This document shows positions 437-16,637 of a stretch of 32,000 nt of DNA, piece after piece. The position numbers and the translations under genes are program-made. Below the pieces are notes generated by a model that was not told where the DNA came from, did not search any database, and was given only the letters and a program-made list of their open reading frames with translations. Source of the stretch: Massilicoli timonensis (GTDB taxonomy: Bacteria; Bacillota_I; Bacilli_A; Erysipelotrichales; Erysipelotrichaceae); assembly GCF_900199515.1 (NCBI RefSeq), contig NZ_LT963434.1, positions 1,952,180 through 1,984,179 on the forward strand, written 5' to 3'. How positions within the stretch are numbered: the first letter of the stretch is position 1; every line of letters starts with the position of its first letter.

Positions 437-452
437 GTTAGTCTAAGCTAAC
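437..452. promoter_or_regulatory. Shared palindromic operator GTTAG-N6-CTAAC, copy 1
   Basis: GTTAG TCTAAG CTAAC. It lies in the 66-nt gap between the TetR stop (486) and the ABC start (419), 17 nt from that start. Confidence 0.7.
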
Positions 453-485
453 TAACAGTTAATTTTTTTAGCTCCCGATAGAGAG

Positions 486-1103
486 CTAATGTTTAAATCC
501 TAAAACCTTATACCAGTCAAACAGATTGCAGACAAGCTGATTGTATCTTATGATTTCTTCCCAGCTGAAATCATGAACGAAAGGTTCATAAATGGTTTCC
601 CAGAAGGCAGATAGAAGTACGTGCATTTCTCTGCGGGAAACCTGTACCTCCGTCAGATGTCTTCGATAGGCTTCCTTGTAGTATTCATATGTGTAATCAG
701 ACATTTTCTGTACCCAGTCATGGCTGAAGGTTGAAAATTTTGAGCCTTCGCTTCTGCATAGAAGAAGCTTAAAGCATTCCTTTCTCTGATATAGAAATTC
801 AAACCACCAGAGCATATAGCTTTCATCCATATCCCAGCTTCTGATTAGTGCTTCATCAGATACGGTATCGGGATCAGTCAGCTTTTTTTGATTGATGATC
901 TCATTTAAGTCATCCAGCAGAGGCTGAACGACAGCAAGAAACAATTCCTCTTTGCCTTTATATCTTTTATATAAAGCTCCGGTTGTGACTTCAGCATTTC
1001 CGCATATGGATTTTAAAGAGGCATTCAGGAAACCTTCCTTCAGAAACTCCTGCTTGGCACTGTCTAAAATTTTAGGATCCAGTGTAGTATCTCTTTTTGA
1101 CAA
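486..1103 (-). CDS. TetR/AcrR family transcriptional regulator (T1)
   Basis: 205 aa. N-terminal TetR HTH (ILDSAKQEFLKEGFLNASLKSICGNAEVTTGALYKRYKGKEELF). TTG start at 1103 with GGAG 8 nt upstream. Confidence 0.85.
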   Translation of the reverse strand: MSKRDTTLDPKILDSAKQEFLKEGFLNASLKSICGNAEVTTGALYKRYKGKEELFLAVVQPLLDDLNEIINQKKLTDPDTVSDEALIRSWDMDESYMLWWFEFLYQRKECFKLLLCRSEGSKFSTFSHDWVQKMSDYTYEYYKEAYRRHLTEVQVSRREMHVLLSAFWETIYEPFVHDFSWEEIIRYNQLVCNLFDWYKVLGFKH

Positions 1104-1127
1104 ATGACCACTCCTTTACTGATAACT

Positions 1128-1143
1128 TAATTATCGATAATTA
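1128..1143. promoter_or_regulatory. Private palindrome of TetR T1 (TAATTATCGATAATTA)
   Basis: Perfect 16-bp palindrome 7 nt downstream of the -10 of the T1 promoter, which is the expected autoregulatory operator position. Confidence 0.55.
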
Positions 1144-1150
1144 CATTATC

Positions 1151-1178
1151 ATTATATCTTATTGTATGCAGTTGTCAA
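1151..1178 (-). promoter_or_regulatory. Sigma-A-type promoter for TetR T1
   Basis: Reverse strand reads TTGACA (1178-1173), a 16-nt spacer, then TATAAT (1156-1151). Confidence 0.65.
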
Positions 1179-1238
1179 TCATTTACTGATATTTTTAAAT
1201 TTTCAATAAATTTTGAAGTCAAAAATTTCCTGAATCAA

Positions 1239-1267
1239 TTGACAAAAGGAAAAAGATGTTTTATATT
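1239..1267 (+). promoter_or_regulatory. Sigma-A-type promoter for TetR T2
   Basis: TTGACA (1239-1244), a 17-nt spacer, then TATATT (1262-1267). It diverges from the T1 promoter. Confidence 0.6.
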
Positions 1268-1268
1268 T

Positions 1269-1294
1269 AAAACAGTGTTACGTAACAGTGTTTT
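1269..1294. promoter_or_regulatory. Private palindrome of TetR T2
   Basis: AAAACAGTGTTAC/GTAACAGTGTTTT, with 12 of 13 positions paired. It starts immediately after the -10 and lies 20 nt before ATG 1314. Confidence 0.55.
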
Positions 1295-1313
1295 AAAAGT
1301 TTGGAGGTGAGCC

Positions 1314-1925
1314 ATGCCAAAGAGAAAGGAAGGCGTTTATGAGAAAATCCTGGACGCCGCAAAAAAGGAGTTTCTGTCTAAGGGATTTCGTGATGCATCG
1401 CTTCGAGTGATTGCCAGAGAAGCAGATACCAGCACAAGTTCAATTTACACAAGATTTAAAGATAAGCAGGGACTTTTTGATGCTATCATTCAGCCTGTTG
1501 GAGATGAATATATAGAGATGTTTACGAAGATTCAGGAACAGTTCTGGCAGATGGAATCCTATGATGATTATGACTATATGCTGGAATACAGCGAGAACGG
1601 ACAGAAAATGCTGCTGAATTATATCTATGAACACTTTGATGAATTTCAGCTGCTGTTATGTCAGGCGGATGAAGCGCAGAAGGATCGTTTCATGAATACC
1701 CTGATTGATATAGAAACGAAGGGCTCACTGGAATATCTGGATGTCATGCAGCCAAAACAGCGTGTTGATGAAGAATTTATGCATATTGTCAATACAGCTT
1801 TTTTCAACGGCTTTTTTGAAATCGTCCATCATAAGATGGACAGGGAAAAAGCTTATCAGTATATTACAAGACTGAGAGCATTTTATAACGCCGGATATGC
1901 GACTGTTTATGATGCGGAGTTCTAA
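1314..1925 (+). CDS. TetR/AcrR family transcriptional regulator (T2)
   Basis: 203 aa. TetR HTH (ILDAAKKEFLSKGFRDASLRVIAREADTSTSSIYTRFKDKQGLF). RBS GGAGGTGA. Clearly paralogous to T1 (shared LLLC motif). Confidence 0.85.
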   Translation: MPKRKEGVYEKILDAAKKEFLSKGFRDASLRVIAREADTSTSSIYTRFKDKQGLFDAIIQPVGDEYIEMFTKIQEQFWQMESYDDYDYMLEYSENGQKMLLNYIYEHFDEFQLLLCQADEAQKDRFMNTLIDIETKGSLEYLDVMQPKQRVDEEFMHIVNTAFFNGFFEIVHHKMDREKAYQYITRLRAFYNAGYATVYDAEF

Positions 1926-1950
1926 GGAACTCTTTCTTTTAAAGAATTTG

Positions 1951-1966
1951 GTTAGCTAAAACTAAC
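1951..1966. promoter_or_regulatory. Shared palindromic operator GTTAG-N6-CTAAC, copy 2 (distal)
   Basis: GTTAG CTAAAA CTAAC, 26 nt after the T2 stop. Confidence 0.7.
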
Positions 1967-2048
1967 TTCTGAAAGTGAGATGATAGGAATAGACAATACA
2001 AATAATAGTGATAAGGGTTCACAGGAACTCATTTATTTAAAATGATGA

Positions 2049-2064
2049 GTTAGCTAAAACTAAC
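2049..2064. promoter_or_regulatory. Shared palindromic operator GTTAG-N6-CTAAC, copy 3 (proximal)
   Basis: GTTAG CTAAAA CTAAC, with a spacer identical to copy 2. It ends 14 nt before ATG 2079, directly before the RBS. Confidence 0.7.
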
Positions 2065-2078
2065 AGAAGGGAGAAGTT

Positions 2079-3824
2079 ATGGAAACAAAGAAAAAATCCC
2101 CTCTCCTTCGTCTATGGGATATGGGGAAGGAAGAACATGGAAAACTTATATTGGCAATCGTACTGGCTGTGGTTGGCGTAACCTGCAGCATGGCTGCTTA
2201 TTACAGTGCAGCACAGATGATCATCGGACTGCTTCATGGCAATCAGAATTTCAGCTTTTATCTGACATGGTGTGCTATTGCATTAGCAGGATATGTTATC
2301 AAGGCGGTACTGTATACGCTGGCATTGTCAAAGTCACATCAGGCAGCATTCTCGATTATGAAAAACATCCGTATTCAATGTATGCATAAGCTTACCAGAG
2401 TACCGATGGGAAATCTGCTGGATGTATCAAGCGGGCAGATGAAGCAGCTCATTGTCGATCAGGTAGAAAGCATGGAAACTCCTTTAGCACATCTTTTGCC
2501 TGAAATGACCAGCAATGTGTTGGCGCCGCTCTTTGTCTTTGTTTATCTATTGATTCTTGACTGGCGTATGGCACTCATTACTTTGATTTCGCTGCCGATC
2601 GGATTATTCTTCATGTCTTTTATGATGAAGGATTATGCGAAAAAATATCAGGGCTCCGTTGAAACTGCACAGAAGATGAATACCGCCATTGTAGAATATA
2701 TCAATGGCATTGAAGTCATCAAGGCATTTAATCAGGGCAAGAATTCTTATCAGAAATATGCGGATGCGGTAAAGGCCAATGCTGAATATTTTTATCAGTG
2801 GATGAAAAGTTGTCAGCTTCCTTCGTCTGCAAGCCGTATAGTAACGCCTTCAACAATGATTACGGTTCTTCCGTTTGGATTATGGTTTGTCATGAACGGA
2901 AGTCTTTCCGTTGAAAGCTTTATTGTGATTATGATTCTTGCATTCGGAATCATCGATCCTTTGATTGCGGCAATGTCCTTTACAGACAGTCTGGCAGTGG
3001 TAGGAACAATCGTGGATCTTGTGGAAGGTCTGATTTATGCTCCGGAACAGGATCATGGCAATATACCCGTTCAGTTTGAAGATACAGCTATCACAATGAA
3101 AGATGTATCCTTTGGCTATCATGAAGGTCAGGAGGTTCTTCATCATATTAATCTCAATATTCTGCCAAATGAGGTCTGTGCATTTGTTGGACCGAGCGGC
3201 AGTGGAAAATCAACGATTACCAAGCTAATTGCAGGCTTCTGGGACGTTGAAAAGGGAGATATTACGATTGGAAATCATTCTCTTAAGCAGATTCCGCTTT
3301 CTCAGCTGAATCAGATGATCGCCTATGTATCACAGGACAACTATCTGTTTAATGATGCAATCATGGAAAACATAAGAATGGGAAATCCTGATGCAGATGA
3401 CGCTGAAGTCATGGAAGCTGCTAAGAAGGCAGGCTGTCATGAGTTTATTCAGTCGCTGGAAAATGGATACCAGACAATCTGCGGCAGCAGCGGAACACAT
3501 TTATCAGGAGGAGAACGACAGAGAATTGCTATCGCAAGAGCGATGCTGAAGGATGCACCGATCATCATATTGGACGAAGCAACGGCCTATATCGATCCGG
3601 AAAATGAAGCAATCGTGCAAAAGGCAGTATCTTCTTTGGTCAAGGATAAGACGCTGATTGTCGTGGCACATCGTCTGTCAACGATTACGGAGGCATCAAA
3701 GATCGTTGTGGTAAATGAAGGAAGGATAGAAGCCATTGGCAGACATGAAGAACTGCTTGAAAACAATGCATTATATAAGCAGATGTGGCAGGCACATATA
3801 GGAACAAGGGAGGAAGCATTATGA
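2079..3824 (+). CDS. ABC transporter ATP-binding protein/permease (fused TMD-NBD half transporter)
   Basis: 581 aa. Walker A GPSGSGKST, signature LSGGERQRIAIAR, Walker B IIILDEAT, H-loop VAHRLST. The stop overlaps the next start (ATGA at 3821). Confidence 0.9.
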   Translation: METKKKSPLLRLWDMGKEEHGKLILAIVLAVVGVTCSMAAYYSAAQMIIGLLHGNQNFSFYLTWCAIALAGYVIKAVLYTLALSKSHQAAFSIMKNIRIQCMHKLTRVPMGNLLDVSSGQMKQLIVDQVESMETPLAHLLPEMTSNVLAPLFVFVYLLILDWRMALITLISLPIGLFFMSFMMKDYAKKYQGSVETAQKMNTAIVEYINGIEVIKAFNQGKNSYQKYADAVKANAEYFYQWMKSCQLPSSASRIVTPSTMITVLPFGLWFVMNGSLSVESFIVIMILAFGIIDPLIAAMSFTDSLAVVGTIVDLVEGLIYAPEQDHGNIPVQFEDTAITMKDVSFGYHEGQEVLHHINLNILPNEVCAFVGPSGSGKSTITKLIAGFWDVEKGDITIGNHSLKQIPLSQLNQMIAYVSQDNYLFNDAIMENIRMGNPDADDAEVMEAAKKAGCHEFIQSLENGYQTICGSSGTHLSGGERQRIAIARAMLKDAPIIILDEATAYIDPENEAIVQKAVSSLVKDKTLIVVAHRLSTITEASKIVVVNEGRIEAIGRHEELLENNALYKQMWQAHIGTREEAL

Positions 3825-5551
3825 TTAAGGTTTTAAAGAAAATATGGGATTTTGCTGGCGTTGAGCAGAAACACATAAAAAAATCTATTATTATCGGTAT
3901 TTTCTATGCTATCTTTCATATGTTCATGATTGGTGCCATTTTCTTTGCGGTAGAGGCAGTTGTCAATGAAAGTCATGATGTTCGTTATATATTCATGACA
4001 TTCTTCATGGTTCTGTTGAGCATAGTAGGACGAATTGCCTGCAACTATTCAACTCAGCTTCATCAGACACATGCAGGATACTACATGTCGGCATGGAAAA
4101 GAATTGACATAGGAAATCGCTTGAAGACAATTCCAATGGGATTTTTCAATGAGAACAGCCTAGGAGAAATTACCGGGATTGCGACAACCGTTTTGCAGGA
4201 AGTAGAAACAACCGTTCCAATGGTACTGGTCATTACCCTGACTGGCATCATCAATGCACTGATCTTTATCATGTATATCTTTTTCTTTGATTATCGTATC
4301 GGCTTTATTGTTCTGCTGGGAACGATCTGTTATTTTTTCATCACTTCCAAAATGGAAAAGAAATCCAGCATGATTGCTCCAAAACGCCAAAGATCAACAG
4401 CAAAGCTGGTAGAGGCGGTTTTAGAGAATATCAAAGGAATGTTTATTGTTCGCTCATTTAATCTTTCAGAAAACAATCATCAGAATATAGATGAAGCAAT
4501 TGAAAATAATCGTGCCAGCAATCTGGCAATGGAAAGACTATTCACACCATATACGATTGCTCAGGAAATAGTCTTAAAACTGTTTAGTATTCTGATTATC
4601 CTTGCGGCGATACAGTTTTACTGGAATCAGACAATGTCTTTGACTTACTGTCTGATGATGATTATTGTATCATTTCTGATATTTGCACAGATTCAATCTG
4701 CAGGCAGCGGTCTGGCAATTTTAAGACTGGCAGGAAGCTCCATTGATCATGCCAATAAGGTAGATGAAACTCCGATACTTGATGAACATGGAAAAGAAAT
4801 CAAGCCTGAGAATCAGGAAATTGTATTTAACGATGTCAGCTTTTCCTATGACAAGAGAGAAATTCTTCACCATGTTCAGCTGACAATTCCGCACCATTCT
4901 TCATTGGCTATTGTCGGACCTAGCGGAAGCGGAAAGACGACATTGTGTCATCTGATTTCCAGATTCTGGGATGTCAATCAGGGAAGTATTTCTATTGGCG
5001 GACATGATATCAGGGACTATACACTGGAATCGTTGATGGATCAGCTCAGCATGGTCTTTCAGAATGTTTATCTGTTTAATGATACGATAGAAAACAACAT
5101 TAAATTCGGCAGACCAGAAGCAACTTTAGAAGATGTGAAACTGGCTGCCCAGAAAGCATGCTGTGATGAATTTATTGAATCGTTGCCAGAAGGCTATCAG
5201 ACAGTCATTGGTGAGGGCGGATCTTCGTTATCAGGTGGTGAAAAACAAAGAATTTCTATTGCCAGAGCCATTTTAAAAGATGCGCCAATCATTATCTTTG
5301 ATGAAGCGACAGCTAATGTGGATCCGGAAAACGAGGATAAGCTGCAAAGGGCGATGGAAGAACTGATGAAGGATAAGACAGTTATCATGATAGCTCACCG
5401 CTTGAAAACAGTGAAACATGCATCAAAGATTATAGTAATCAATAATGGTCAAATCGTTCAGCAGGGAACACATCAGCAGCTGATAAAGGAAGATGGGTTA
5501 TATAAAAAGTTTGTTGAACAGAAAAATGAAACTGGTTCTTGGAAGTTATAA
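3821..5551 (+). CDS. ABC transporter ATP-binding protein/permease, partner of 2079-3824
   Basis: The track ORF starts at 3785. ATG 3821 (MIKVLKK) is preferred because it has RBS GGGAGGAAG and an ATGA overlap. Walker A GPSGSGKTT, signature LSGGEKQRISIAR, Walker B IIIFDEAT. Confidence 0.9.
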   Translation: MIKVLKKIWDFAGVEQKHIKKSIIIGIFYAIFHMFMIGAIFFAVEAVVNESHDVRYIFMTFFMVLLSIVGRIACNYSTQLHQTHAGYYMSAWKRIDIGNRLKTIPMGFFNENSLGEITGIATTVLQEVETTVPMVLVITLTGIINALIFIMYIFFFDYRIGFIVLLGTICYFFITSKMEKKSSMIAPKRQRSTAKLVEAVLENIKGMFIVRSFNLSENNHQNIDEAIENNRASNLAMERLFTPYTIAQEIVLKLFSILIILAAIQFYWNQTMSLTYCLMMIIVSFLIFAQIQSAGSGLAILRLAGSSIDHANKVDETPILDEHGKEIKPENQEIVFNDVSFSYDKREILHHVQLTIPHHSSLAIVGPSGSGKTTLCHLISRFWDVNQGSISIGGHDIRDYTLESLMDQLSMVFQNVYLFNDTIENNIKFGRPEATLEDVKLAAQKACCDEFIESLPEGYQTVIGEGGSSLSGGEKQRISIARAILKDAPIIIFDEATANVDPENEDKLQRAMEELMKDKTVIMIAHRLKTVKHASKIIVINNGQIVQQGTHQQLIKEDGLYKKFVEQKNETGSWKL

Positions 5552-5564
5552 TCATATATATAAA

Positions 5565-5598
5565 GTCACATGCCTATCAAAAAGGGTGTGTGATTTTT
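5565..5598 (+). terminator. Probable intrinsic terminator after the first ABC pair
   Basis: Imperfect hairpin CACATGCCT...AGGGTGTGTG followed by ATTTTTC. Confidence 0.45.
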
Positions 5599-5601
5599 CT
5601 A

Positions 5602-5630
5602 TTGTACATATATTATGTATGTGGTAGTAT
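5602..5630 (+). promoter_or_regulatory. Candidate promoter of the AraC-family gene
   Basis: TTGTAC (5602-5607), a 17-nt spacer, then TAGTAT (5625-5630) preceded by TGG. The shared operator starts 5 nt later. Confidence 0.45.
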
Positions 5631-5634
5631 TTTG

Positions 5635-5650
5635 GTTAGAATTAACTAAC
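5635..5650. promoter_or_regulatory. Shared palindromic operator GTTAG-N6-CTAAC, copy 4
   Basis: GTTAG AATTAA CTAAC, 19 nt before ATG 5670. Confidence 0.7.
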
Positions 5651-5669
5651 TTCAGGGGTGGATATTGAA

Positions 5670-6614: not shown

Positions 6615-6691
6615 CATTTTTGGGCTATTTTAAGGCGATATATATAGTTATGGGGTAGAAAGAAATATGGAAAGTAATTAAAATGGTGTAT

Positions 6692-6707
6692 GTTAGCTAT
6701 GACTAAC
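6692..6707. promoter_or_regulatory. Shared palindromic operator GTTAG-N6-CTAAC, copy 5
   Basis: GTTAG CTATGA CTAAC, 32 nt before ATG 6740. Confidence 0.7.
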
Positions 6708-6739
6708 TACATCATTTTTATTTAGGAGGGATTATACTT

Positions 6740-10346: not shown

Positions 10347-10350
10347 TTTA

Positions 10351-10378: not shown

Positions 10379-10423
10379 GCTATGATTAGAAAGATGTGGT
10401 TTTCTTGATTATTATCTTTATGC

Positions 10424-10451
10424 TTGACATTATCATGTACAAGGATATAAT
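10424..10451 (+). promoter_or_regulatory. Sigma-A-type promoter for TetR T3
   Basis: TTGACA (10424-10429), a 16-nt spacer, then TATAAT (10446-10451). Confidence 0.65.
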
Positions 10452-10477
10452 ATAACTAAGTTATATAACTTAGTTAT
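10452..10477. promoter_or_regulatory. Private palindrome of TetR T3
   Basis: Perfect 26-bp palindrome ATAACTAAGTTAT/ATAACTTAGTTAT abutting the -10 hexamer. Confidence 0.6.
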
Positions 10478-10491
10478 GGCGGTGATATGTT

Positions 10492-11115
10492 GTGGAAAAA
10501 TCTGATACACAGGAACGTATTCTTTCCTGTGGGAAAGAATATTTTTTAAAATATGGATTTAAAAGTGCACCATTAAGAAAAATAGTAGCCAAGGTCGGAG
10601 TGACGACGGGAGCTTTTTATGGATATTATGCTAATAAGGAAGAACTTTTCTATGCGCTGACGGATGATGCAGCGAAAGGCTTTATGGATGTTCTTCATCG
10701 TGTACTTGGTGAAATGAACAGCATTGCAGAAGAAGAAAGAATTTTTAAGATGTGTGATGTCTATATCAAAAGAATACCGGAGATAGCAGAATATCTCCTT
10801 GCACATCACGATGAGATGCTTTTGATTCTTGAATGTTCTCAGGGAACTAAGTATGAGAATTTTTTTGAATCTCTTCAGCGTTCCAATACAGAGAATATTG
10901 ATGAGTCCTCCAGACATTCAAAAAATAAATTAAATTTGATTTCATTGGATACTATGGAACTGCTGATGAGCGGCTACTTTTCCATTTTAAAAAGGATTAT
11001 CATAGAGGAAACAGATCGTGAGAAAATGATTCGCAGCATGAGTGAAGTAGCCAGAGTCTATGAAGCCGGCATTTTAACCTTGATGCAGAAAAGCAACAAC
11101 TATAGGATAATTTGA
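10492..11115 (+). CDS. TetR/AcrR family transcriptional regulator (T3)
   Basis: 207 aa. TetR HTH (ERILSCGKEYFLKYGFKSAPLRKIVAKVGVTTGAFYGYYANKEELF). The GTG start is the first in-frame start after a TGA. Confidence 0.8.
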   Translation: MEKSDTQERILSCGKEYFLKYGFKSAPLRKIVAKVGVTTGAFYGYYANKEELFYALTDDAAKGFMDVLHRVLGEMNSIAEEERIFKMCDVYIKRIPEIAEYLLAHHDEMLLILECSQGTKYENFFESLQRSNTENIDESSRHSKNKLNLISLDTMELLMSGYFSILKRIIIEETDREKMIRSMSEVARVYEAGILTLMQKSNNYRII

Positions 11116-11135
11116 CGGTATGAAGCAGTACCGTC
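11114..11135 (+). terminator. Hairpin at the T3 stop codon (weak terminator or attenuator)
   Basis: GACGGTA (11114-11120) / TACCGTC (11129-11135) with an 8-nt loop. Only a weak U-tract follows. Confidence 0.35.
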
Positions 11136-11152
11136 TAATTATAAAATTGTTA

Positions 11153-11168
11153 GTTAGCCATATCTAAC
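11153..11168. promoter_or_regulatory. Shared palindromic operator GTTAG-N6-CTAAC, copy 6
   Basis: GTTAG CCATAT CTAAC, 23 nt before ATG 11192. An extra overlapping GTTAG sits at 11149-11153. Confidence 0.7.
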
Positions 11169-11191
11169 TAAAGAAGAAAGGAGAATCACAA

Positions 11192-12193
11192 ATGAATAAA
11201 AAAAGTGTATTTGATCAGTTAGCTCAGTTATCTTTCCTACCGCTTTATACAAAGGTAGTGACTGCATCCTTGCAGCTGGATGTATATTCACATTTAAGTG
11301 CAGATATCAGTGCAAAGGATCTGGCTGCCAAGCTAGGGTGGAATGAAAGCAATACTGCTTATTTTTTGGAAGGGCTGACTTCAATAGGATTTGTAGTGAA
11401 GAACGACGAGATGTTCAGAAACAGCGATGAGGCAGAAACCTATCTTGTCAAAGGCAAACCGGAATATTTGGGAAGCTTTATCCAATATTACATCATGAAT
11501 GAAGGATCCATGCCATTTGATATCGTCAAGCTTGTAACGGAAGGACCTCAGCCTATGCAGCAGCAGACTAATGATCAGTCATTGGATTTTGCAGCAATGG
11601 GTGCAATGATGCGTCAGGCTCAGGAAGGATATCGCCAGAAGGAACTGCTGGATATTGTCCGTTCGTTGCCTGAAAATAAAACAATAAACAGTATTCTGGA
11701 TTTAGGATGCGGAACCGGTCTTCTTGGAATGTCGGTAGTAAAGGATGATGAAAAGCGCCAAGGAACATTTATTGATCTGATGCCTGCTTCCATCATAGAA
11801 GAATCAGCAAATCAGATGGAACTATCCGATAGAATAGAAGTCATCAATGGGAATTTTCTTACAGATGATATTGGAAAAGGTTATGATCTAATTCTTGCAG
11901 TATCTGTAGCATTGTTTGCAAAAGGAAACATGGATGTATTTTTGAAAAAGTGCTATGATGCTTTGAATCCTGGAGGAGTCATGCTGGTTATTTCGGAAGC
12001 AATCGCAAAAGATCATACTTCACCTTGGGATATGGTCATGGGATATCTTCCGTATTATATGCAAGGAATGGATATGGGTGTTCTAAAGAATGAGGTTAGT
12101 GAATCCGCTAAACGTATAGGATTTACGAATTGTGAAAAACGCACGGAATTGTTATGTTCCGGAATACAGGATATTGATATCTTAAGAAAATAA
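11192..12193 (+). CDS. Class I SAM-dependent (O-)methyltransferase with an N-terminal dimerisation/winged-helix-like domain
   Basis: 333 aa. SAM motif I ILDLGCGTGLLG and a later acidic motif (FIDL). RBS AAAGGAG. Confidence 0.7.
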   Translation: MNKKSVFDQLAQLSFLPLYTKVVTASLQLDVYSHLSADISAKDLAAKLGWNESNTAYFLEGLTSIGFVVKNDEMFRNSDEAETYLVKGKPEYLGSFIQYYIMNEGSMPFDIVKLVTEGPQPMQQQTNDQSLDFAAMGAMMRQAQEGYRQKELLDIVRSLPENKTINSILDLGCGTGLLGMSVVKDDEKRQGTFIDLMPASIIEESANQMELSDRIEVINGNFLTDDIGKGYDLILAVSVALFAKGNMDVFLKKCYDALNPGGVMLVISEAIAKDHTSPWDMVMGYLPYYMQGMDMGVLKNEVSESAKRIGFTNCEKRTELLCSGIQDIDILRK

Positions 12194-12207
12194 ACAATGA
12201 ATTTATA

Positions 12208-12246
12208 AAGAACAAGTGAGATTATAATCCGCCTGTTCTTTTTTTA
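12208..12246 (+). terminator. Probable intrinsic terminator after the methyltransferase gene
   Basis: AAGAACA (12208-12214) / TGTTCTT (12234-12240) followed by a T-run. Confidence 0.5.
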
Positions 12247-12320
12247 AAAACTAAAAATGTTATCACTGACTTCTTTTAAGATACGCGATAAAATGAACTT
12301 ATAGAAAGGGGTCGAAAGTC

Positions 12321-12587
12321 ATGGCGAAGATCAGTTTGACTGCACAGGCAGCAGGAAAAAGAATAAGAGAATACAGGGAAGAAAAGAAATGGACTATCAA
12401 TAAGATGGCAGCATTTGCTGGCATGGATGCGAAGCATTTAAAGAAACTGGAAGACGGTCTTTCTGAAGGAACATTTCTAATGTATATACATCTGATGGAA
12501 TGTATGAAGAAAAATATCAGTGATTTGTTTGATCAGAGATTTACAGCTATCCTGTATTCATTGGAAACAGGTGAAATGCTTTCATGA
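12321..12587 (+). CDS. XRE family HTH protein
   Basis: 88 aa. RIREYREEKKWTINKMAAFAGMDAKHLKKLEDG is a Cro/C1-type HTH. The stop overlaps the next start (ATGA). Confidence 0.75.
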   Translation: MAKISLTAQAAGKRIREYREEKKWTINKMAAFAGMDAKHLKKLEDGLSEGTFLMYIHLMECMKKNISDLFDQRFTAILYSLETGEMLS

Positions 12588-13132
12588 GAGTGAAATCAAC
12601 GTTGTCTGATCATGATCATATTCATCTGAAGACATTATCAAGACTTCTTGTCAGCAACAGGGAACAAAACGGGTGGTCTGTTGCAGATTTTTGTAAAATG
12701 GCACATATAGACCGCGACAGCTATACAAAGGTGGAAAGAGGAGAGCGTAATCCTACGATTGGAGTGCTGGAAAGTATTTTATCAGTTTATGGTATCAGTA
12801 TGCATATATTTTTTTCTAGCGTTTATCAACAGCTTTATAATGAAGAAATAACTGAATGGAAAATTGATCAAATGCTTAATGACAATCTATGCAGAATGAT
12901 TGACAGACAAAAGATCATTAGAATGATTAAGAAATTCAGAAAATCTCGCAAAATTAGTCAAAACCTGCTGGCAATGGAAATGGGCATTCAGAGAAACTAT
13001 ATTAACAACTTTGAATATGGTCGCTCAAAAGTTACGCCTGAATTACTAAAAGGCATAATGACAGTAATGGATATTGATATAGAAACACTATTGGATATGC
13101 TGGAGGTTCCTGAAAATTTGCGTAGATTTTGA
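12584..13132 (+). CDS. XRE family protein with two tandem HTH domains
   Basis: 182 aa. HTH 1 is NGWSVADFCKMAHIDRDSYTKVERGERNPT. HTH 2 is SRKISQNLLAMEMGIQRNYINNFEYGRSKVT. Confidence 0.75.
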   Translation: MRVKSTLSDHDHIHLKTLSRLLVSNREQNGWSVADFCKMAHIDRDSYTKVERGERNPTIGVLESILSVYGISMHIFFSSVYQQLYNEEITEWKIDQMLNDNLCRMIDRQKIIRMIKKFRKSRKISQNLLAMEMGIQRNYINNFEYGRSKVTPELLKGIMTVMDIDIETLLDMLEVPENLRRF

Positions 13133-13157
13133 TGTTCAAATTTGAACATCATTTTTT
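13130..13157. promoter_or_regulatory. Palindrome with TGTTCAAATTTGAACA core, copy B (also shaped like a terminator)
   Basis: Perfect 22-bp palindrome TGATGTTCAAA/TTTGAACATCA (13130-13151) that overlaps the TGA of the upstream gene. TTTTTT follows at 13152-13157. Confidence 0.6.
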
Positions 13158-13169
13158 GTTTGTTCTATA

Positions 13170-13198
13170 CTGACATATTCAATTATGCACGACATAAT
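13170..13198 (+). promoter_or_regulatory. Promoter of the XRE gene at 13222; homologous to the parA promoter
   Basis: CTGACA, a 17-nt spacer, then CATAAT. It contains GCACGACATAATG (13187-13199), identical to 21654-21666. Confidence 0.55.
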
Positions 13199-13221
13199 GA
13201 ATTTGGAGGTGAATGTAATAT

Positions 13222-13452
13222 ATGGAAGATAATTTAGATAATAGCGTGATTCTAACTCTATTTGGTGAACAAGTAAAGAATTACAGAACTAAGCAATATC
13301 TGACACAGGCGGAACTGGCAGAGAAATCACATCTGCATAGGAACTCCATTGTACTTATTGAGAATGGAAAACAGAATCCAACCCTTACACTCATGTGTAA
13401 GCTGTCTTTTGCATTGAATGTAAAGATGAAAGATCTGGTGGATAATTTATGA
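13222..13452 (+). CDS. XRE family HTH protein
   Basis: 76 aa. QYLTQAELAEKSHLHRNSIVLIENGKQNPT. RBS GGAGGTGA. Confidence 0.8.
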   Translation: MEDNLDNSVILTLFGEQVKNYRTKQYLTQAELAEKSHLHRNSIVLIENGKQNPTLTLMCKLSFALNVKMKDLVDNL

Positions 13453-13775
13453 GACAATCAAATGAAGAAATCATAGAAATGTACTTAAGGGCAGAACTAT
13501 ATGAAAGGCTGGATTGCTATGAGAAAGTGGATTATAAAACAAAGATAGATCGTCTAACTGAAATGATAGAGAAGATGAAAAAACTGCTTCCATCAGAGCA
13601 GCATGGACTGCTGCATGAGTTTGAGGATATCTATATGGATCTGCTTTCTTATTCTGATCCATATGAATTTGAAAACGGCTTCTGTTATGGAGTATCGTTA
13701 TTGCTGAGTGTCATGGAAAAGGAAAAAGAATTTAATAAAAAGTGGAAGAAAAGGGGAGATATAAGCAATGAGTAG
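13449..13775 (+). CDS. Small helical protein of unknown function (DUF6809-like by recollection)
   Basis: 108 aa, ATGA-coupled to the XRE gene. The C-terminal F-E-N-G-F-x-Y-G motif is typical of small proteins encoded after XRE genes on Firmicutes mobile elements. Confidence 0.45.
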   Translation: MRQSNEEIIEMYLRAELYERLDCYEKVDYKTKIDRLTEMIEKMKKLLPSEQHGLLHEFEDIYMDLLSYSDPYEFENGFCYGVSLLLSVMEKEKEFNKKWKKRGDISNE

Positions 13776-14127
13776 AAAAGACACTGCTTGCAATGATTCA
13801 GATATTGATAAGATCATGAAAATCTATATGGAGGCATTGGTTTATCTTCAAAATGATGATTATATGCTGAAAAGTCAGGAATATCTAGAAATTGATAACA
13901 AATTAGAGGAACAGAAGGCTTGCATTAAAGAAAAAGCTAAAGGTATACGATTTGAAGATAAAATAGAGAAACTATTAAACAGTTATGATGATACATGGCA
14001 GAGCATGAATTTTATTTATAGAACATATGGTTTTTTGGATGGGCTCATGATCGGACTTATTTTGAATAAACAGTCTAATGAGGAATTCTATCAAAAACTT
14101 TATATGATGGTAAAAAACAGATGGTAA
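13768..14127 (+). CDS. Small helical protein, paralogue of 13449-13775
   Basis: 119 aa, overlapping the upstream gene by 8 nt. Same layout, and its C-terminal YGFLDGLMIGL parallels NGFCYGVSLLL. Confidence 0.45.
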   Translation: MSRKDTACNDSDIDKIMKIYMEALVYLQNDDYMLKSQEYLEIDNKLEEQKACIKEKAKGIRFEDKIEKLLNSYDDTWQSMNFIYRTYGFLDGLMIGLILNKQSNEEFYQKLYMMVKNRW

Positions 14128-14265
14128 CTTTATAGATGATACTATGAAATTCTTTTATTATTCAAAATGATACTGTTATTTACCATTAGTACAATAGATA
14201 ATAATTTCATATAAAAAAGACTATGAAGTAATTTGATGATACAACATCAACACTTTTATAGTCTT

Positions 14266-14844
14266 TTATATTAAGCATTCTATGCGTTTTCCTTCGTAAA
14301 CACCATTTAGCAATTCATCGCGTGAGCGAGCATAAAGCTTAAATAATTCTTGCGCACGTTTAGGATTCGAATATACTTTCCAGCATCTGCATAGCAAGCA
14401 GGTTTCTTTTTTTATGAATCCTTTCACATCTGCTAAAGGATATCCCAAAAATATACCAATTTCATGAGGATAGCTGCAGCTTTCACATAATCTTTTATTT
14501 AAATGTCTGAAAATGGTTGCCAAATCTTTGGCTGGATAATCAAGAACATTTAAAAAAGAATGAACTTCTGATTGTGAAAGTCTGAGTTTTAATGCCTCCT
14601 TATGATAGACATAGATTGTAAGTCTTTGACAGCCTTCCTAAAAAAGATAAATATGCACACCATGATGAAACAGTATGTTTTGATAACGTTGTACCAATTC
14701 CCTTACATTGTTAAATTGTTTATCAGAAACATGAAACATATTTGCAATTTTAACCTTTTTTAGAACCAGACCACAGTACAAAGCTAACGGCTCTTCAAAT
14801 TCGACTTCATCCTTTGGTAAATCACATTTTGGACAGAATGTCAT
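14266..14844 (-). pseudogene. DUF3793-like gene interrupted by a single in-frame TAG (14640-14638)
   Basis: Track ORFs 14638-14844 and 14266-14523 are in one frame. The intervening 114 nt translate without stops (EGCQRLTIYVYHKEALKLRLSQSEVHSFLNVLDYPAKD). YPHEIGIFLGYPLADVKGFI and WKVY match my recollection of DUF3793. Confidence 0.6.
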
Positions 14845-15175
14845 TTATTGCTGCAATATCTTCATCTGTACCGTTGTTTTCTACCTTGTACAGACATTCA
14901 ACATCATATGTTTCTGCAATTTTATCTCCTGCTAGACAGTAAGCTTCTCCATAGCCCTGATCACCTGAAACAACAACGCCTTTTAGATTCATAGAATTAG
15001 CCAAAAGGAAAGTTTCCACTTCCATTGGAACATCACCATATCCGTCTGTATAGGTAAACAAAACATAAGGCTCATCTATTGTTTCGTTTCCTGTGTCAAT
15101 TCTTAAAGCATCAGCTCCTAATGCCTGTACAATGGATTCTACATTTCCTGTTCTTGAAGCATAAGCAATTTTCAT
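14822..15175 (-). CDS. nrdI: NrdI-like flavodoxin-fold protein
   Basis: 117 aa. MKIAYASRTGNVESIV, PYVLFTYTDGYGDVP, GVVVSGDQGYGEAY and KVENNGTDEDI align by eye with B. subtilis NrdI. RBS AGGAGA. No nrdEF genes are in the window. Confidence 0.55.
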   Translation of the reverse strand: MKIAYASRTGNVESIVQALGADALRIDTGNETIDEPYVLFTYTDGYGDVPMEVETFLLANSMNLKGVVVSGDQGYGEAYCLAGDKIAETYDVECLYKVENNGTDEDIAAINDILSKM

Positions 15176-15192
15176 AGTTGATTCTCCTTTCG

Positions 15193-15208
15193 GTTAGTCT
15201 AAACTAAC
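15193..15208. promoter_or_regulatory. Shared palindromic operator GTTAG-N6-CTAAC, copy 7 (proximal to the nrdI-like gene)
   Basis: GTTAG TCTAAA CTAAC, 17 nt from the reverse-strand ATG at 15175. Confidence 0.7.
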
Positions 15209-15222
15209 TACTTCATAGATAA

Positions 15223-15251
15223 ATGTTAGCATGAGCTAACTATTTTGTCAA
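15223..15251 (-). promoter_or_regulatory. Candidate promoter of the nrdI-like operon
   Basis: Reverse strand reads TTGACA (15251-15246), a 17-nt spacer, then TAACAT (15228-15223). Operator copy 8 fills the spacer and the -10. Confidence 0.4.
15225..15240. promoter_or_regulatory. Shared palindromic operator GTTAG-N6-CTAAC, copy 8 (distal)
   Basis: GTTAG CATGAG CTAAC, overlapping the putative promoter core. Confidence 0.7.
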
Positions 15252-15280
15252 TAGAGGATTCTAGAGTAATTTATAATATA

Positions 15281-15309
15281 TTGACAGAGTTAATCAAGAG
15301 TGTTATACT
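15281..15309 (+). promoter_or_regulatory. Sigma-A-type promoter for TetR T4
   Basis: TTGACA (15281-15286), a 17-nt spacer, then TATACT (15304-15309). Confidence 0.6.
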
Positions 15310-15311
15310 GT

Positions 15312-15344
15312 TCCTATGAACAAAACTAAAAAATGTTCATAGGA
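15312..15344. promoter_or_regulatory. Private inverted repeat of TetR T4
   Basis: TCCTATGAAC, a 13-nt spacer, then GTTCATAGGA: perfect 10-bp arms. The 3' arm overlaps the AGGAGG RBS, so it could be an operator or an RBS-sequestering hairpin. Confidence 0.5.
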
Positions 15345-15350
15345 GGAATT

Positions 15351-15932
15351 ATGCCAGTAGCTTTTACTCATGAAGAACAGCTGAATATCCAACTGAAATT
15401 AGAAGAATCTGCGCTTGCTCTAGTTAAGCAAAAAAGTGTAAAAAAGATTACTGTACGTGAGCTTTCTAATCAGGCGGGAATCTCTATAGGGGCATTTTAT
15501 AAGTTTTATCCAACAAAGGAGCATTTATTTTATTCCCTTTTACGTAGTCTGCATGGTAAGGTTTACGAATCTGCCATGAATGAACTTTTTGCCTCAGGTA
15601 ATATAAATCCTGCTGAACGATTAAGGAATTCTATTATTGCCGGCTGTGACGCCTTGGATAGAAGTGGTATGGAGCGTTTCTGGACGGAAGATGCCTTATA
15701 TGTTATGGAGATGATTCCGGATGTCGATAAAGAAGAACAGCGTATTTCAGAGAAAACGTTATATAAAAAATTCTTCAATATGTACGGAAATCTAGCGGTT
15801 TCAGAGGATTTAGCAATGGATGCATTGGGCAGCTTGCTAATGAGTGTTTCTCAGCGACATATATTAGGTGAGCATTATCCGACAATACTGCTTTGGCAGG
15901 CTGAAGGAGTCTGTAATCATATTTTTGAGTGA
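15351..15932 (+). CDS. TetR/AcrR family transcriptional regulator (T4)
   Basis: The track ORF starts at 15333. ATG 15351 follows AGGAGG at proper spacing. HTH is ITVRELSNQAGISIGAFYKFYPTKEHLF. More divergent than T1-T3. Confidence 0.8.
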   Translation: MPVAFTHEEQLNIQLKLEESALALVKQKSVKKITVRELSNQAGISIGAFYKFYPTKEHLFYSLLRSLHGKVYESAMNELFASGNINPAERLRNSIIAGCDALDRSGMERFWTEDALYVMEMIPDVDKEEQRISEKTLYKKFFNMYGNLAVSEDLAMDALGSLLMSVSQRHILGEHYPTILLWQAEGVCNHIFE

Positions 15933-15961
15933 GAAATCACTCAAAAAATTTTAATCATCGA

Positions 15962-15977
15962 GTTAGACAAAGCTAAC
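15962..15977. promoter_or_regulatory. Shared palindromic operator GTTAG-N6-CTAAC, copy 9
   Basis: GTTAG ACAAAG CTAAC, 30 nt after the T4 stop and 51 nt before ATG 16029. Confidence 0.7.
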
Positions 15978-16028
15978 TGAAATTCTCCTGAGTCTAAAAA
16001 CAAATTTATGAAAATGATGGAGGTTATT

Positions 16029-16637
16029 ATGAAAAAAATGAACAATGCAAATCGTTTAGACGTCCCAGATTTTATTTCAATTGGGATTTATACAGCAATA
16101 TATTTTGTGCTGGTTACCATAGCAACATTTTCAAGCGGTATTTTGTTTGCTGGTTTTGCATATGTATTGCTTCCTGCATTAGCCACTTTAATATCAGGAT
16201 GTGTATATATGTTAATGGTTGCTAAAGTACCTAAATTTGGGGCAATAACCATTATGGGTATTGTTATGGGACTGTTTTTCTTTGCGTCAGGTCATTTTAT
16301 TTTATCTTTTGGAGCTAATATTGTATGTGGCGTTTTAGCCGATATTATCTGTAAAATCGGAAAATATAAAAATAAGATGCTGATACTTTTGAGCTATATT
16401 GTGTTTTCATTTGGATTGACTGGACCAGTTCTTCCTATGTGGTTTATGAAAGATGCATATGTTGCTAATTTAATTGAACGTGGGAAAGATGCGGCTTACA
16501 TTGATGCAATGTTTGCTTCAATCAATATGGGAACCTTCGGCATCTGCTGTATTGCTATTTTAATCTGTGCAATTATAGGTGGAATATTTGGACAGCGAAT
16601 GATGAAAAAGCATTTTCAGAAAGCAGGCATTATATAA
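16029..16637 (+). CDS. Putative ECF transporter S component (MptD / Trep_Strep-like integral membrane protein)
   Basis: About 202 aa from ATG 16029 (RBS GGAGG). Five or six hydrophobic helices. It sits directly before the T component and the double ATPase, and overlaps the next gene in a TAATG. Confidence 0.5.
   Translation: MKKMNNANRLDVPDFISIGIYTAIYFVLVTIATFSSGILFAGFAYVLLPALATLISGCVYMLMVAKVPKFGAITIMGIVMGLFFFASGHFILSFGANIVCGVLADIICKIGKYKNKMLILLSYIVFSFGLTGPVLPMWFMKDAYVANLIERGKDAAYIDAMFASINMGTFGICCIAILICAIIGGIFGQRMMKKHFQKAGII

What the first reader, a model, noticed from the sequence alone, without database searches (positions are those of the whole stretch)
437..16029. The same cassette built four times: TetR gene, then the shared palindrome, then the cargo operon, with a different private palindrome at each TetR promoter
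The four cassettes are as follows. T1 (1103-486, minus strand), site 437, ABC gene starting at 419. T2 (1314-1925), sites 1951 and 2049, ABC pair. T3 (10492-11115), hairpin 11114-11135 plus site 11153, methyltransferase. T4 (15351-15932), site 15962, ECF operon. In every case the regulator is upstream on the same strand. The shared site lies in the short gap (66-153 nt) between its stop and the cargo start. Each TetR gene also has its own unrelated palindrome immediately after a good sigma-A-type promoter. These are TAATTATCGATAATTA (1128-1143), AAAACAGTGTTAC/GTAACAGTGTTTT (1269-1294), the perfect 26-mer ATAACTAAGTTATATAACTTAGTTAT (10452-10477), and TCCTATGAAC-N13-GTTCATAGGA (15312-15344). The 3' arm of the last one overlaps the RBS. 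This suggests two regulatory layers: private autoregulation of each TetR, plus one common gate on all cargo. I could not find strong promoters in the 66-nt T1-ABC gap. The shared site may therefore act as an intra-operon roadblock between regulator and cargo.
Basis: partly seen in the sequence, partly recalled or inferred. Interest (0 to 1): 0.65.

Follow-up and report, generated by a model that had tools for sequence, protein, structure and literature searches.

The report
TetR cassettes gated by a metal-repressor box
Four (six genome-wide) transporter or enzyme cassettes each begin with their own TetR repressor gene, followed by a hairpin and a shared 16-bp DNA site that is most likely the docking site of a small iron/manganese-type (DtxR/MntR-family) repressor, so each cargo probably needs both "its own ligand present" and "metal scarce" to be expressed.

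Summary
The box has 17 exact copies in the 2.5-Mb genome, 9 of them in this window, and all lie just upstream of genes.

The box is most likely the operator of a small DtxR/MntR-family metal repressor, not a TetR site:
- It has the one-dimer IdeR geometry (TTAGN-N4-NCTAA).
- Its targets include feoAB, feoA-feoB and nrdI.
- Three box-headed operons end in a DtxR-like gene.
- Orthologues of the stand-alone DtxR-like gene carry boxes at their own promoters.
- Box excess tracks that gene across 148 related genomes.

The private repeats of T1, T2 and T3 are conserved in orthologues. T4's is less clear.

The cassette is general. Six of nine TetR genes here have it, and so do many gut-Firmicute loci.

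A new regularity emerged. In 20 of 22 junction or leader boxes, an RNA hairpin ends 16-18 nt before the box. None of 12 promoter-type boxes shows this. This supports coupling to read-through transcription, much like YtgR at Chlamydia trpRBA.

The parts
3..419 (-). T1 cargo: 5' part of a heterodimeric ABC exporter pair, which continues left of the window
   Evidence: The ORF is. Orthologous cargo is ABC_membrane + ABC_tran.
437..452 (.). Shared box, T1 junction
   Evidence: It lies 16 nt after the hairpin and 6 nt before the RBS.
469..488 (-). Post-T1 RNA hairpin (-10.2 kcal/mol) overlapping the T1 stop codon. An A-run follows, not a U-run.
486..1103 (-). TetR gene T1
   Evidence: TetR_N, 38 bits. 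It belongs to a large clade of 947 homologues.
1117..1154 (.). T1 private operator: GATAAT-N3-ATTATC twice, with a perfect core at 1128-1143, placed at +1 of the T1 promoter
   Evidence: The same 30-bp motif is present in 4 of 4 orthologous loci.
1151..1178 (-). T1 promoter, TTGACA-16-TATAAT
   Evidence: 12/12 match.
1239..1267 (+). T2 promoter, TTGACA-17-TATATT
   Evidence: 11/12 match.
1266..1297 (.). T2 private operator: two tandem AACAGTGTT palindromes
   Evidence: It is conserved in L009-L013, L047, L048, L057, L059 and in paralogue T6.
1314..1925 (+). TetR gene T2
   Evidence: TetR_N, 49 bits.
1916..1933 (+). Post-T2 hairpin followed by TTCTTTT: a weak, terminator-like element
1951..1966 (.). 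Shared box, T2 junction (distal copy), 17 nt after the hairpin
2018..2046 (+). Weak candidate internal promoter, TTCACA-17-AATGAT
   Evidence: 9/12 match.
2049..2064 (.). Shared box, T2 proximal copy, 2 nt after the weak -10 and 5 nt before the RBS
2079..5551 (+). T2 cargo: heterodimeric ABC exporter pair (2079-3824 and 3785-5551)
5635..5650 (.). Shared box at the AraC-family gene promoter (TGTACA-16-TAGTAT with TG, then 4 nt). No TetR precedes it.
   Evidence: The AraC gene is 5658/5670-6614.
6692..6707 (.). Shared box before the second ABC pair (6740-10292). No TetR precedes it.
10424..10451 (+). T3 promoter, TTGACA-16-TATAAT
   Evidence: 12/12 match.
10452..10477 (.). T3 private operator: a perfect 26-bp palindrome made of two 13-bp palindromes
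   Evidence: It is conserved with symmetric changes in L049 and L050.
10492..11115 (+). TetR gene T3
   Evidence: TetR_N.
11114..11135 (+). Post-T3 hairpin, GACGGTA-N8-TACCGTC
11153..11168 (.). Shared box, T3 junction, 17 nt after the core hairpin
   Evidence: The L049 orthologue has the same layout.
11192..12193 (+). T3 cargo: O-methyltransferase
   Evidence: Methyltransf_2 plus the dimerisation domain.
14822..15175 (-). NrdI-type flavodoxin, a box target with no TetR
   Evidence: TIGR00333, 87.5 bits. Pfam result.
15193..15240 (.). Two shared boxes (15193-15208 and 15225-15240) on the nrdI promoter TTGACA-17-TAACAT. One lies in the spacer and one at about +8.
15281..15309 (+). T4 promoter, TTGACA-17-TATACT with TG
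   Evidence: 11/12 match.
15312..15344 (+). T4 private inverted repeat: 11-nt arms, 11-nt gap, with the 3' arm abutting the SD. It could be a TetR operator or a 5'-UTR hairpin.
   Evidence: Orthologues keep an inverted repeat with compensating changes but a variable gap.
15351..15932 (+). TetR gene T4
   Evidence: TetR_N, 32 bits. No orthologue was found in 148 genomes of the order.
15922..15947 (+). Post-T4 hairpin followed by ATTTTAAT: a weak, terminator-like element
15962..15977 (.). Shared box, T4 junction, 14-18 nt after the hairpin
   Evidence: A box is conserved upstream of 16 of 21 orthologous S genes.
16029..19348 (+). T4 cargo: ECF importer (MptD/Trep_Strep S component, CbiQ T component, double ATPase) plus a 212-aa protein with no family match

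Best explanation
Each cassette is a TetR-first operon with two independent inputs.

Input 1 is the TetR. It represses its own strong sigma-A promoter through a private operator at +1. This is inferred from position and from conservation in orthologues. It is solid for T1-T3 and weaker for T4.

Input 2 is the shared box GTTAG-N6-CTAAC between the TetR gene and the cargo. This is the operator of a small two-domain DtxR/MntR-family metalloregulator. The stand-alone gene is at C4:314568-314942 of this genome, and three operon-borne paralogues exist. The metal is most likely Fe(II).

The same box also represses ordinary promoters, including those of feoAB, feoA-feoB, nrdI, an AraC-family gene and other ABC/ECF operons. 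In the cassettes it sits 16-18 nt after an RNA hairpin that closes the TetR gene.

Proposed mechanism, which is inferred and not shown:
- With metal bound, the repressor stops RNA polymerase coming from the TetR promoter. It also occludes any weak internal promoter.
- The halted transcript then ends just past the hairpin, leaving a capped TetR mRNA and no cargo.
- With metal scarce, read-through delivers cargo mRNA, but only if the TetR has been released by its own ligand.

The result is an AND-type gate: TetR ligand present AND metal low. The metal signal does not affect TetR itself.
For: Box identity:
- The core is TTAGY-N4-RCTAA. This is the one-dimer IdeR frame TTAGGNNNNCCTAA (PMC8464063).
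- The genome has four small DtxR-family genes. They are nearest to MntR/IdeR/DtxR structures and fall below the MntR equivalog cut-offs.
- They carry the Asn/Cys ligand pattern, the pattern reported for the SH3-less repressor EqbA (PMC3672683).
- Three box-headed ABC/ECF operons end in such a gene.
- In relatives, D1 orthologues have boxes at their own promoters, next to feoB or next to eno.
- Across 148 genomes, box counts against the control pattern are 850 vs 469 with a close D1 homologue and 80 vs 183 without (Mann-Whitney p = 2e-10).
- At ordinary promoters, boxes sit 1-7 nt after the -10, inside TTGACA-N17 spacers, or enclose the -35.

TetR layer:
- The four best promoters in the region are the four TetR promoters.
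- The operators are conserved in orthologues.

Cassette generality:
- 6 of 9 TetR genes in this genome are followed by hairpin, box and transporter.
- The same layout occurs in Lachnospiraceae, Schaedlerella, other Erysipelotrichales and many metagenome contigs.
- Variants L052 and L047 place the box and the TetR operator on a single promoter. The dual logic is therefore conserved even where the layout differs.

Coupling to elongation:
- A hairpin ends 16-18 nt before the box in 20 of 22 junction/leader boxes and in 0 of 12 promoter-type boxes (Fisher p = 1.7e-7).
- The hairpin sequences are unrelated between cassettes.
- A protein roadblock halts RNAP about 14 bp upstream of its site (PMC3064811).

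Precedent: the DtxR-family repressor YtgR binds between trpR and trpBA. There it both represses an internal promoter and terminates read-through (PMC6504234).
Against: - Read-through, internal start sites and box-dependent 3' ends are therefore all untested.
- About half of the junction hairpins carry a U-tract and could be ordinary terminators that end TetR transcripts regardless of the box (spacers).
- -10-like hexamers occur in several spacers, so a compact terminator-promoter-operator layout remains possible.
- The roadblock geometry predicts only a minimum spacing. It does not obviously explain the upper limit of 18 nt.
- D1 in this genome has no box of its own. Which of the four paralogues acts on the island is unknown.
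- The metal is not determined. The protein is closest in sequence to MntR.
- The phylogenetic-profile statistics are not corrected for relatedness.
- I assigned the junction versus promoter classes myself, partly after looking at the data.
- T4's inverted repeat has a variable gap in orthologues. That fits an RNA hairpin better than a TetR operator.
Confidence: 0.6

Rival explanations
1. The junction is a compact terminator, promoter and operator, with no roadblock. Each TetR gene would be a monocistronic, self-terminated unit. The cargo would be transcribed only from a weak promoter squeezed between the terminator and the box, and the metal repressor alone would control it. The TetR would then act on the cargo through some other site, or not at all.
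For: - The T2 and T4 hairpins pass the terminator scan. L016, L021, L010, L017, L025 and L026 have clear U-tracts.
- -10-like hexamers lie 1-7 nt before many boxes.
- Candidate promoters TTCACA-17-AATGAT (T2) and TTGACG-18-TAATTA (T3) exist.
- FeoAB follows an unrelated gene's terminator at the same 16-17 nt spacing and must have its own promoter.
Against: - It leaves the TetRs with no cargo to regulate. No copy of any private operator lies near a cargo start.
- T1, T3, L009, L048 and L056 lack U-tracts.
- The -10-like hexamers sit at variable offsets, whereas the hairpin offset is fixed.
- Promoter scores at cassette boxes (7-10 of 12) are lower than at TetR-less boxes (mostly 9-11).
- In L052, the cargo of an orthologous TetR has neither a box nor a promoter of its own. 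It is evidently co-transcribed with the TetR gene.
Confidence: 0.25
2. The box acts as RNA. A GUUAG-N6-CUAAC stem-loop in the cargo 5' UTR would serve as an mRNA stabiliser, an RNase processing landmark or a protein-binding hairpin. Together with the upstream hairpin it would separate a short-lived TetR mRNA from a stable cargo mRNA, as in cggR-gapA processing in B. subtilis (own knowledge).
For: - The box folds as a hairpin in every junction, next to the RBS, with an AU-rich single-stranded spacer between two stems.
- Many boxes would lie at the very 5' end of the transcript.
Against: - The arms are invariant and show no covariation. Positions 6 and 11 do not pair in most copies.
- Several boxes lie in untranscribed DNA: in promoter spacers, upstream of the -35, or enclosing the -35.
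- The motif is symmetric and is used in both orientations.
- It tracks a DNA-binding repressor family across genomes.
- There is no Rfam match.
Confidence: 0.07
3. The shared box is bound by the TetRs themselves, or by the local AraC or XRE regulators of the island. The system would then collapse into simple local control.
For: - TetR operators are typically palindromes of about 16 bp.
- The box is adjacent to 6 of 9 TetR genes.
- An AraC gene inside the island has a box at its own promoter.
Against: - The TetRs are 15-27% identical and have different, conserved private operators.
- Most boxes serve units with no TetR, such as feoAB and nrdI.
- In other genomes, 47 of 49 TetR genes are not next to a box.
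- Boxes cluster at DtxR-like genes.
- AraC proteins usually bind direct repeats (own knowledge).
Confidence: 0.04

Closest known systems
YtgR control of the Chlamydia trachomatis trpRBA operon (PMC6504234)
   Same: A ligand-sensing repressor gene (trpR) comes first. A DtxR-family metal repressor binds the intergenic region before the cargo (trpBA). The authors show that it both represses an internal promoter and terminates transcripts from the upstream promoter, which they call 'iron-dependent trans-attenuation'.
   Different: That is a single locus in one organism, with a TrpR rather than a TetR, and YtgR is cleaved from a permease fusion. Here the layout is modular. It is repeated six times in one genome with unrelated TetRs, and it is widespread in gut Firmicutes. 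It also carries a hairpin at a fixed 16-18 nt before the operator, a feature I did not see mentioned in the abstract or discussion I read. Nothing here has been shown experimentally.
IdeR/DtxR iron box, one-dimer form TTAGGNNNNCCTAA (PMC8464063)
   Same: Both have a 5+4+5 inverted-repeat frame with the TTAG/CTAA core. Both are bound by a wHTH metalloregulator dimer and act as repressor sites overlapping promoters.
   Different: The fifth base is Y or R instead of G or C. An extra invariant G/C flanks the site. There is no overlapping second dimer site. The likely regulator lacks the SH3-like domain and is closer in sequence to MntR.
EqbA and the equibactin locus of Streptococcus equi ICESe2 (PMC3672683)
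   Same: EqbA is an SH3-less DtxR-family repressor with Asn at the DtxR Met10 position and Cys at the Cys102 position, the pattern seen in D1. It controls a locus that includes an importer (eqbHIJ) and fused permease-ATPase ABC pairs (eqbKL) involved in iron acquisition.
   Different: The paper describes the EqbA operator as a unique 36-bp palindrome unlike other iron boxes. No TetR layer and no intra-operon operator are reported.
Repressor roadblocks in Firmicutes: CcpA at internal cre sites and CodY at internal sites, Mfd-dependent (own knowledge); EcoRI* roadblock geometry (PMC3064811)
   Same: A DNA-bound repressor downstream of a promoter stops elongating RNAP. The halt is about 14 bp upstream of the obstacle.
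   Different: To my knowledge, those cases are not described with a dedicated RNA hairpin at a fixed distance, and they do not lie between a regulator gene and its cargo.
Classical TetR-first autoregulated efflux operons
   Same: A TetR gene heads the operon. A palindromic operator sits at +1 of a strong promoter. The cargo is a transporter.
   Different: A second, unrelated repressor site is inserted between regulator and cargo. The regulator is therefore exempt from the second signal while the cargo is not.

Membership tests
DtxR/MntR-family operator (the shared box) | Inverted repeat with the TTAGN-N4-NCTAA one-dimer frame | tested here: met
   17 exact GTTAG-N6-CTAAC sites with Y at position 6 and R at position 11. 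The frame is defined in PMC8464063.
DtxR/MntR-family operator (the shared box) | A DtxR-family regulator is encoded in the genome and is genetically linked to the sites | tested here: met
   There are four small PF01325 genes. Three of them end box-headed operons. Orthologues in G099, G017 and G019 have boxes at their own promoters.
DtxR/MntR-family operator (the shared box) | Sites and regulator co-occur across genomes | tested here: met
   Across 148 genomes, box counts against control are 850/469 with a close homologue and 80/183 without (p = 2e-10, not corrected for phylogeny).
DtxR/MntR-family operator (the shared box) | The regulon is enriched in metal-homeostasis genes | tested here: met
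   Targets include feoAB, feoA-feoB, nrdI, and ECF (MptD) and ABC transporters. In G019 the targets are feoB and a rubredoxin-like gene.
DtxR/MntR-family operator (the shared box) | Metal-dependent binding of the protein to the site | not testable with these tools
   This needs EMSA or ChIP with Fe(II), Mn(II) or Co(II).
MntR equivalogs (NCBIfam NF008273 / NF003025) | Score above the curated cut-off | tested here: not met
   D1 scores 88.7 against a cut-off of 153, and 68.1 against 138. In the alignment to B. subtilis MntR (1on1), D1 has Asn and Cys where the chain has an Asp and a Glu, which I take from my own knowledge to be the Mn ligands Asp8 and Glu99.
TetR-family autoregulated operon | N-terminal TetR HTH domain | tested here: met
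   PF00440 scores above cut-off for T1-T4 and for T5 and T6.
TetR-family autoregulated operon | Palindromic operator overlapping the gene's own promoter and conserved in orthologues | tested here: met
   for position. Conservation is shown for T1, T2 and T3. For T4 the result is inconclusive, because the gap is variable.
TetR-family autoregulated operon | Ligand-induced release from the operator | not testable with these tools
   The ligands are unknown.
Repressor roadblock / trans-attenuation (YtgR-trpRBA type) | The operator lies between a regulator gene and its cargo on one strand, downstream of the regulator's promoter | tested here: met
Repressor roadblock / trans-attenuation (YtgR-trpRBA type) | Upstream transcripts end at the operator in a repressor- and metal-dependent way | not testable with these tools
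The only indirect support is the hairpin ending 16-18 nt before the box.
Repressor roadblock / trans-attenuation (YtgR-trpRBA type) | An additional internal promoter repressed by the same operator | tested here: inconclusive
   Only weak matches were found, scoring 7-10 of 12.
Intrinsic terminator (the junction hairpins) | A G+C-containing stem followed by a U-tract | tested here: inconclusive
   T2 and T4 pass the scan, while T1 and T3 do not. By my own reading of the spacers printed, about half of the junction hairpins have at least 5 T in the next 8 nt.
Known cis-regulatory RNA (Rfam) | A match at gathering score | tested here: not met
   No matches in window 1-20000.

The most novel reading that the evidence does not exclude
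Hairpin, 16-18 nt, then metal-repressor box would be a portable 'trans-attenuator' module. The DNA-bound DtxR/MntR-type repressor halts RNA polymerase just after it has transcribed a capping hairpin. Inserted after any ligand-sensing repressor gene or leader, the module would turn an operon into a transcriptional AND gate (ligand AND metal scarcity) while keeping the regulator's own mRNA intact. It would be a widespread device in gut Firmicutes that has not been described in the papers I searched.
Probability: 0.35. Interest if true: 0.75.

Novelty: new variant of a known kind. Interest (0 to 1): 0.6.

Why it matters
If correct, a whole accessory island of transporters in a gut bacterium, and matching cassettes in many other gut Firmicutes, is wired by one simple reusable design. 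A private small-molecule sensor and a global metal sensor would be combined in series on one transcript.

The finding also supplies three concrete leads:
- A predicted operator and regulon for an uncharacterised clade of small DtxR/MntR repressors.
- A hint that the unknown substrates of these MptD-type ECF importers and type-IV ABC pairs are metal-related, such as metallophores or heme.
- A sharply testable sequence rule: a hairpin ending 16-18 nt before the operator. This could make repressor-mediated transcription attenuation directly measurable. So far I found it documented for a DtxR-family protein at a single locus, in Chlamydia.

Tried and rejected
- T4 orthologues within the order: none in 148 genomes. 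I used metagenome contigs of the ECF S gene instead. The first attempt used the wrong frame and the second was correct.
- Rfam scan of 1-20000: no family.
- Literature searches for a described GTTAG-N6-CTAAC box, or for a combination of DtxR, TetR and ECF: nothing specific.
- Consensus promoter scoring meant to decide between internal promoter and read-through: only a modest difference, so not decisive.
- The idea that the box is a recombinase core site or an integron-like attC: rejected. The spacers differ between copies, and all copies lie at fixed regulatory positions before genes.
- Crp/Fnr-type 5-6-5 site: considered. It was dropped once the links to DtxR-like genes appeared.
- The idea that TetR T3 reads the box through the shared TAACT: rejected, because the half-sites are everted in one site and inverted in the other (sequence).
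- Exact fit of the roadblock geometry to the intrinsic-termination point: it does not fit. The halted 3' end would lie 2-4 nt after the stem, not 7-9 nt. I therefore propose the hairpin as a 3' cap rather than as a roadblock-enhanced terminator.

Full report
**1. Observation**

The window is C4:1952180-1984179 of a 2.5-Mb, 44% G+C genome.

Pfam confirms the four TetR genes: 486-1103(-), 1314-1925, 10492-11115 and 15351-15932. It also confirms their same-strand cargos. These are ABC exporters, an O-methyltransferase, and an ECF importer with an MptD/Trep_Strep S component.

The shared site is GTTAG-N6-CTAAC.
- There are ten matches with up to 3 mismatches, against 0.34 expected.
- Nine exact copies lie in the window and only 17 in the whole genome.
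- A weight-matrix scan raises the total to about 25, of which 16 lie in one 47-kb island.
- All 17 exact copies lie just upstream of an RBS and start codon.

The four TetR promoters are the four best sigma-70 matches in 16 kb. The private inverted repeats are real.
- T1's 16-mer is the centre of a 38-bp element.
- T2's element is two tandem AACAGTGTT units.
- T3's is a perfect 26-mer.
- T4's has 11-nt arms and an 11-nt gap that touches the SD.

**2. What the shared box is**

At ordinary promoters the box sits at the core promoter. It lies 1-7 nt after a -10 (TATACT, TATAAT, TAAAAT, TAGTAT), or inside a TTGACA-N17 spacer where its right arm supplies the -10 (TAACAT). In other genomes it encloses the -35, as in GTTATTGACAACTAAC. 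This is the placement expected of a repressor operator.

Its targets here are several ABC exporter pairs, three ECF systems, feoAB, feoA-feoB, an NrdI flavodoxin, an AraC-family gene and enolase.

Its core, TTAGY-N4-RCTAA, has the frame of the one-dimer IdeR site TTAGGNNNNCCTAA (PMC8464063).

The genome encodes four small DtxR-family proteins without an SH3-like domain.
- Three of them are the last gene of operons that begin with the box.
- The fourth, D1, stands alone. It is nearest to MntR, IdeR and DtxR structures but scores below the MntR equivalog cut-offs.
- D1 has Asn and Cys at the positions that, from my own knowledge of DtxR, correspond to Met10 and Cys102. This is the pattern the authors report for EqbA, which binds DNA in a manner responsive to Fe2+, Zn2+ and Mn2+ (PMC3672683).

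In three other genera of the order, D1 orthologues have one to three boxes at their own promoters. One of them is divergent from feoB. In a fourth genus the orthologue lies directly downstream of enolase.

I compared box counts with a control pattern across 148 genomes of the order.
- In the 112 genomes with a close D1 homologue, boxes outnumber the control 850 to 469.
- In the 36 genomes without one, the counts are 80 to 183.
- The difference gives Mann-Whitney p = 2e-10, not corrected for phylogeny.

I therefore assign the box to this repressor clade with about 0.85-0.9 confidence. The regulon suggests iron as the metal, but this is not established.

**3. The TetR layer**

The four TetRs are only 15-27% identical. 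Their private sites are conserved at orthologous promoters.
- T1: GATAAT-N3-ATTATC twice, in 4 of 4 loci.
- T2: the AACAGTGTT type, in 5 of 5 loci. It also occurs in two further genera and in paralogue T6.
- T3: the 26-mer, with symmetric substitutions or with its two halves swapped.
- T4: orthologues keep an inverted repeat with compensating changes, but the gap varies. It may therefore be a 5'-UTR hairpin rather than an operator.

Every TetR gene in the genome with a recognisable promoter has such a site, whether or not a box follows it.

**4. The cassette is general**

Six of the nine TetR genes above the Pfam cut-off are followed on the same strand by a hairpin, a box and a transporter. 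The two outside the window are at C4:1732303-1732950(-) and C3:91567-92184(-).

The same layout is found in orthologous loci of Lachnospiraceae and Schaedlerella, in other genera of this order, and in many gut metagenome contigs. The divergent T1/T2 pair is itself conserved (L057 and L059).

The box also travels with the cargo when no TetR is present. Sixteen of 21 orthologous ECF S genes carry it.

Two variants place the box and the TetR operator on a single promoter (L052 and L047). The dual input is thus the conserved feature, and the window's layout is the version that exempts the TetR gene from the metal signal.

**5. How the gate works**

A hairpin follows every TetR stop codon.

I profiled hairpin stability against distance from the box.
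- In 20 of 22 junction or leader boxes, a hairpin of -6 kcal/mol or stronger ends 16-18 nt before the first G of the box.
- None of 12 boxes in recognisable promoters shows this (Fisher p = 1.7e-7).
- Other offsets in the junction set average 1.8 of 22.
- The hairpin sequences are unrelated between cassettes, so it is the structure and the distance that are kept.

An RNA structure held at a fixed distance from a protein's DNA site can only be related through the transcribing polymerase. A protein roadblock halts RNAP about 14 bp before its site (PMC3064811). A repressor on the box would therefore stop the polymerase 2-4 nt after the hairpin.

My inference is that the metal-loaded repressor blocks read-through from the TetR promoter and leaves a hairpin-capped TetR mRNA. 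It may also occlude weak internal promoters, such as TTCACA-17-AATGAT before the proximal T2 box.

The documented precedent is YtgR at the Chlamydia trpRBA intergenic region, which does both (PMC6504234).

Several points count against certainty.
- About half of the hairpins have U-tracts and may be plain terminators.
- -10-like hexamers occur in several spacers.
- FeoAB shows the same spacing behind an unrelated gene.
- No transcript data were available.

I put roughly 0.4 on roadblock as the main route. I put 0.25 on a purely compact terminator-promoter-operator layout. The remainder goes to mixtures of the two and to RNA-level effects.

**6. Comparison and novelty**

Each component is of a known kind: TetR-first operons, DtxR-type operators and repressor roadblocks. 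Three things appear undescribed in the papers I could search.
- This operator, for a small MntR-like clade of DtxR-family repressors.
- The modular, repeated insertion of that operator between TetR genes and their cargo.
- The fixed hairpin-to-operator spacing.

I class this as a new variant of a known kind.

Noticed in passing
genome C4:612174 (outside the window); locus L046 6230-8020: The best-scoring box in the genome sits 23 nt upstream of enolase. In relative G003, the D1-type repressor gene lies directly downstream of enolase, with a box inside or near the eno 5' end. This may mean enolase belongs to the metal regulon in this order.
   Followed up: partly
genome C4:758679-763960, 1525003-1531870, 1725368-1732950 (outside the window): Three operons of the form box -> ABC/ECF (plus MATE in one) -> small DtxR-like gene. 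The three regulators are near-identical to each other and about 40% identical to D1. Two lie next to G+C-rich, ICE-like DNA, so the regulator-plus-regulon unit may be mobile.
   Followed up: partly
loci L017, L023-L026, L047 (for example L025 at about 2307): A box variant, GTTATTGACAACTAAC, carries a perfect -35 hexamer inside its spacer. The repressor would cover the -35 directly. In TetR-less ECF operons this variant pairs with a second box about 90 nt downstream, behind a leader hairpin.
   Followed up: partly
loci L017 and L025, leader between the two boxes: A short ORF with its own GAGG RBS (16 aa in L017, 23 aa in L025) runs through the leader hairpin into the proximal box. It is a possible leader peptide, but its length is not conserved.
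   Followed up: no
window 1951-2064; 15193-15240: Boxes often come in pairs at varied centre-to-centre distances: 98 bp (T2), 32 bp (nrdI), 58 bp (feoA) and 22 bp (the ABC operon on C2). Cooperative binding or looping was not examined.
   Followed up: no
window 5658-6614: The AraC-family gene under box control has faint similarity to the siderophore regulators Btr and RhrA (about 20 bits, far below the cut-offs). Its likely start is the ATG at 5670, behind GGGGTGG, not the GTG at 5658.
   Followed up: no
window 15333/15351 and 16008/16029: Judging by RBS position, the likely true starts are 15351 for T4 and 16029 for the ECF S component. Both are downstream of the longest-ORF starts.
   Followed up: yes
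locus L050 2001-4431: In one T3 orthologue the operon reads TetR, ATC_hydrolase, hairpin, 16 nt, box, O-methyltransferase. The gate can therefore sit after the second gene and split an operon into an ungated and a metal-gated part.
   Followed up: partly
window 18710-19348: The last gene of the ECF operon encodes a 212-aa protein with no Pfam or NCBIfam match. I did not test this.
   Followed up: no
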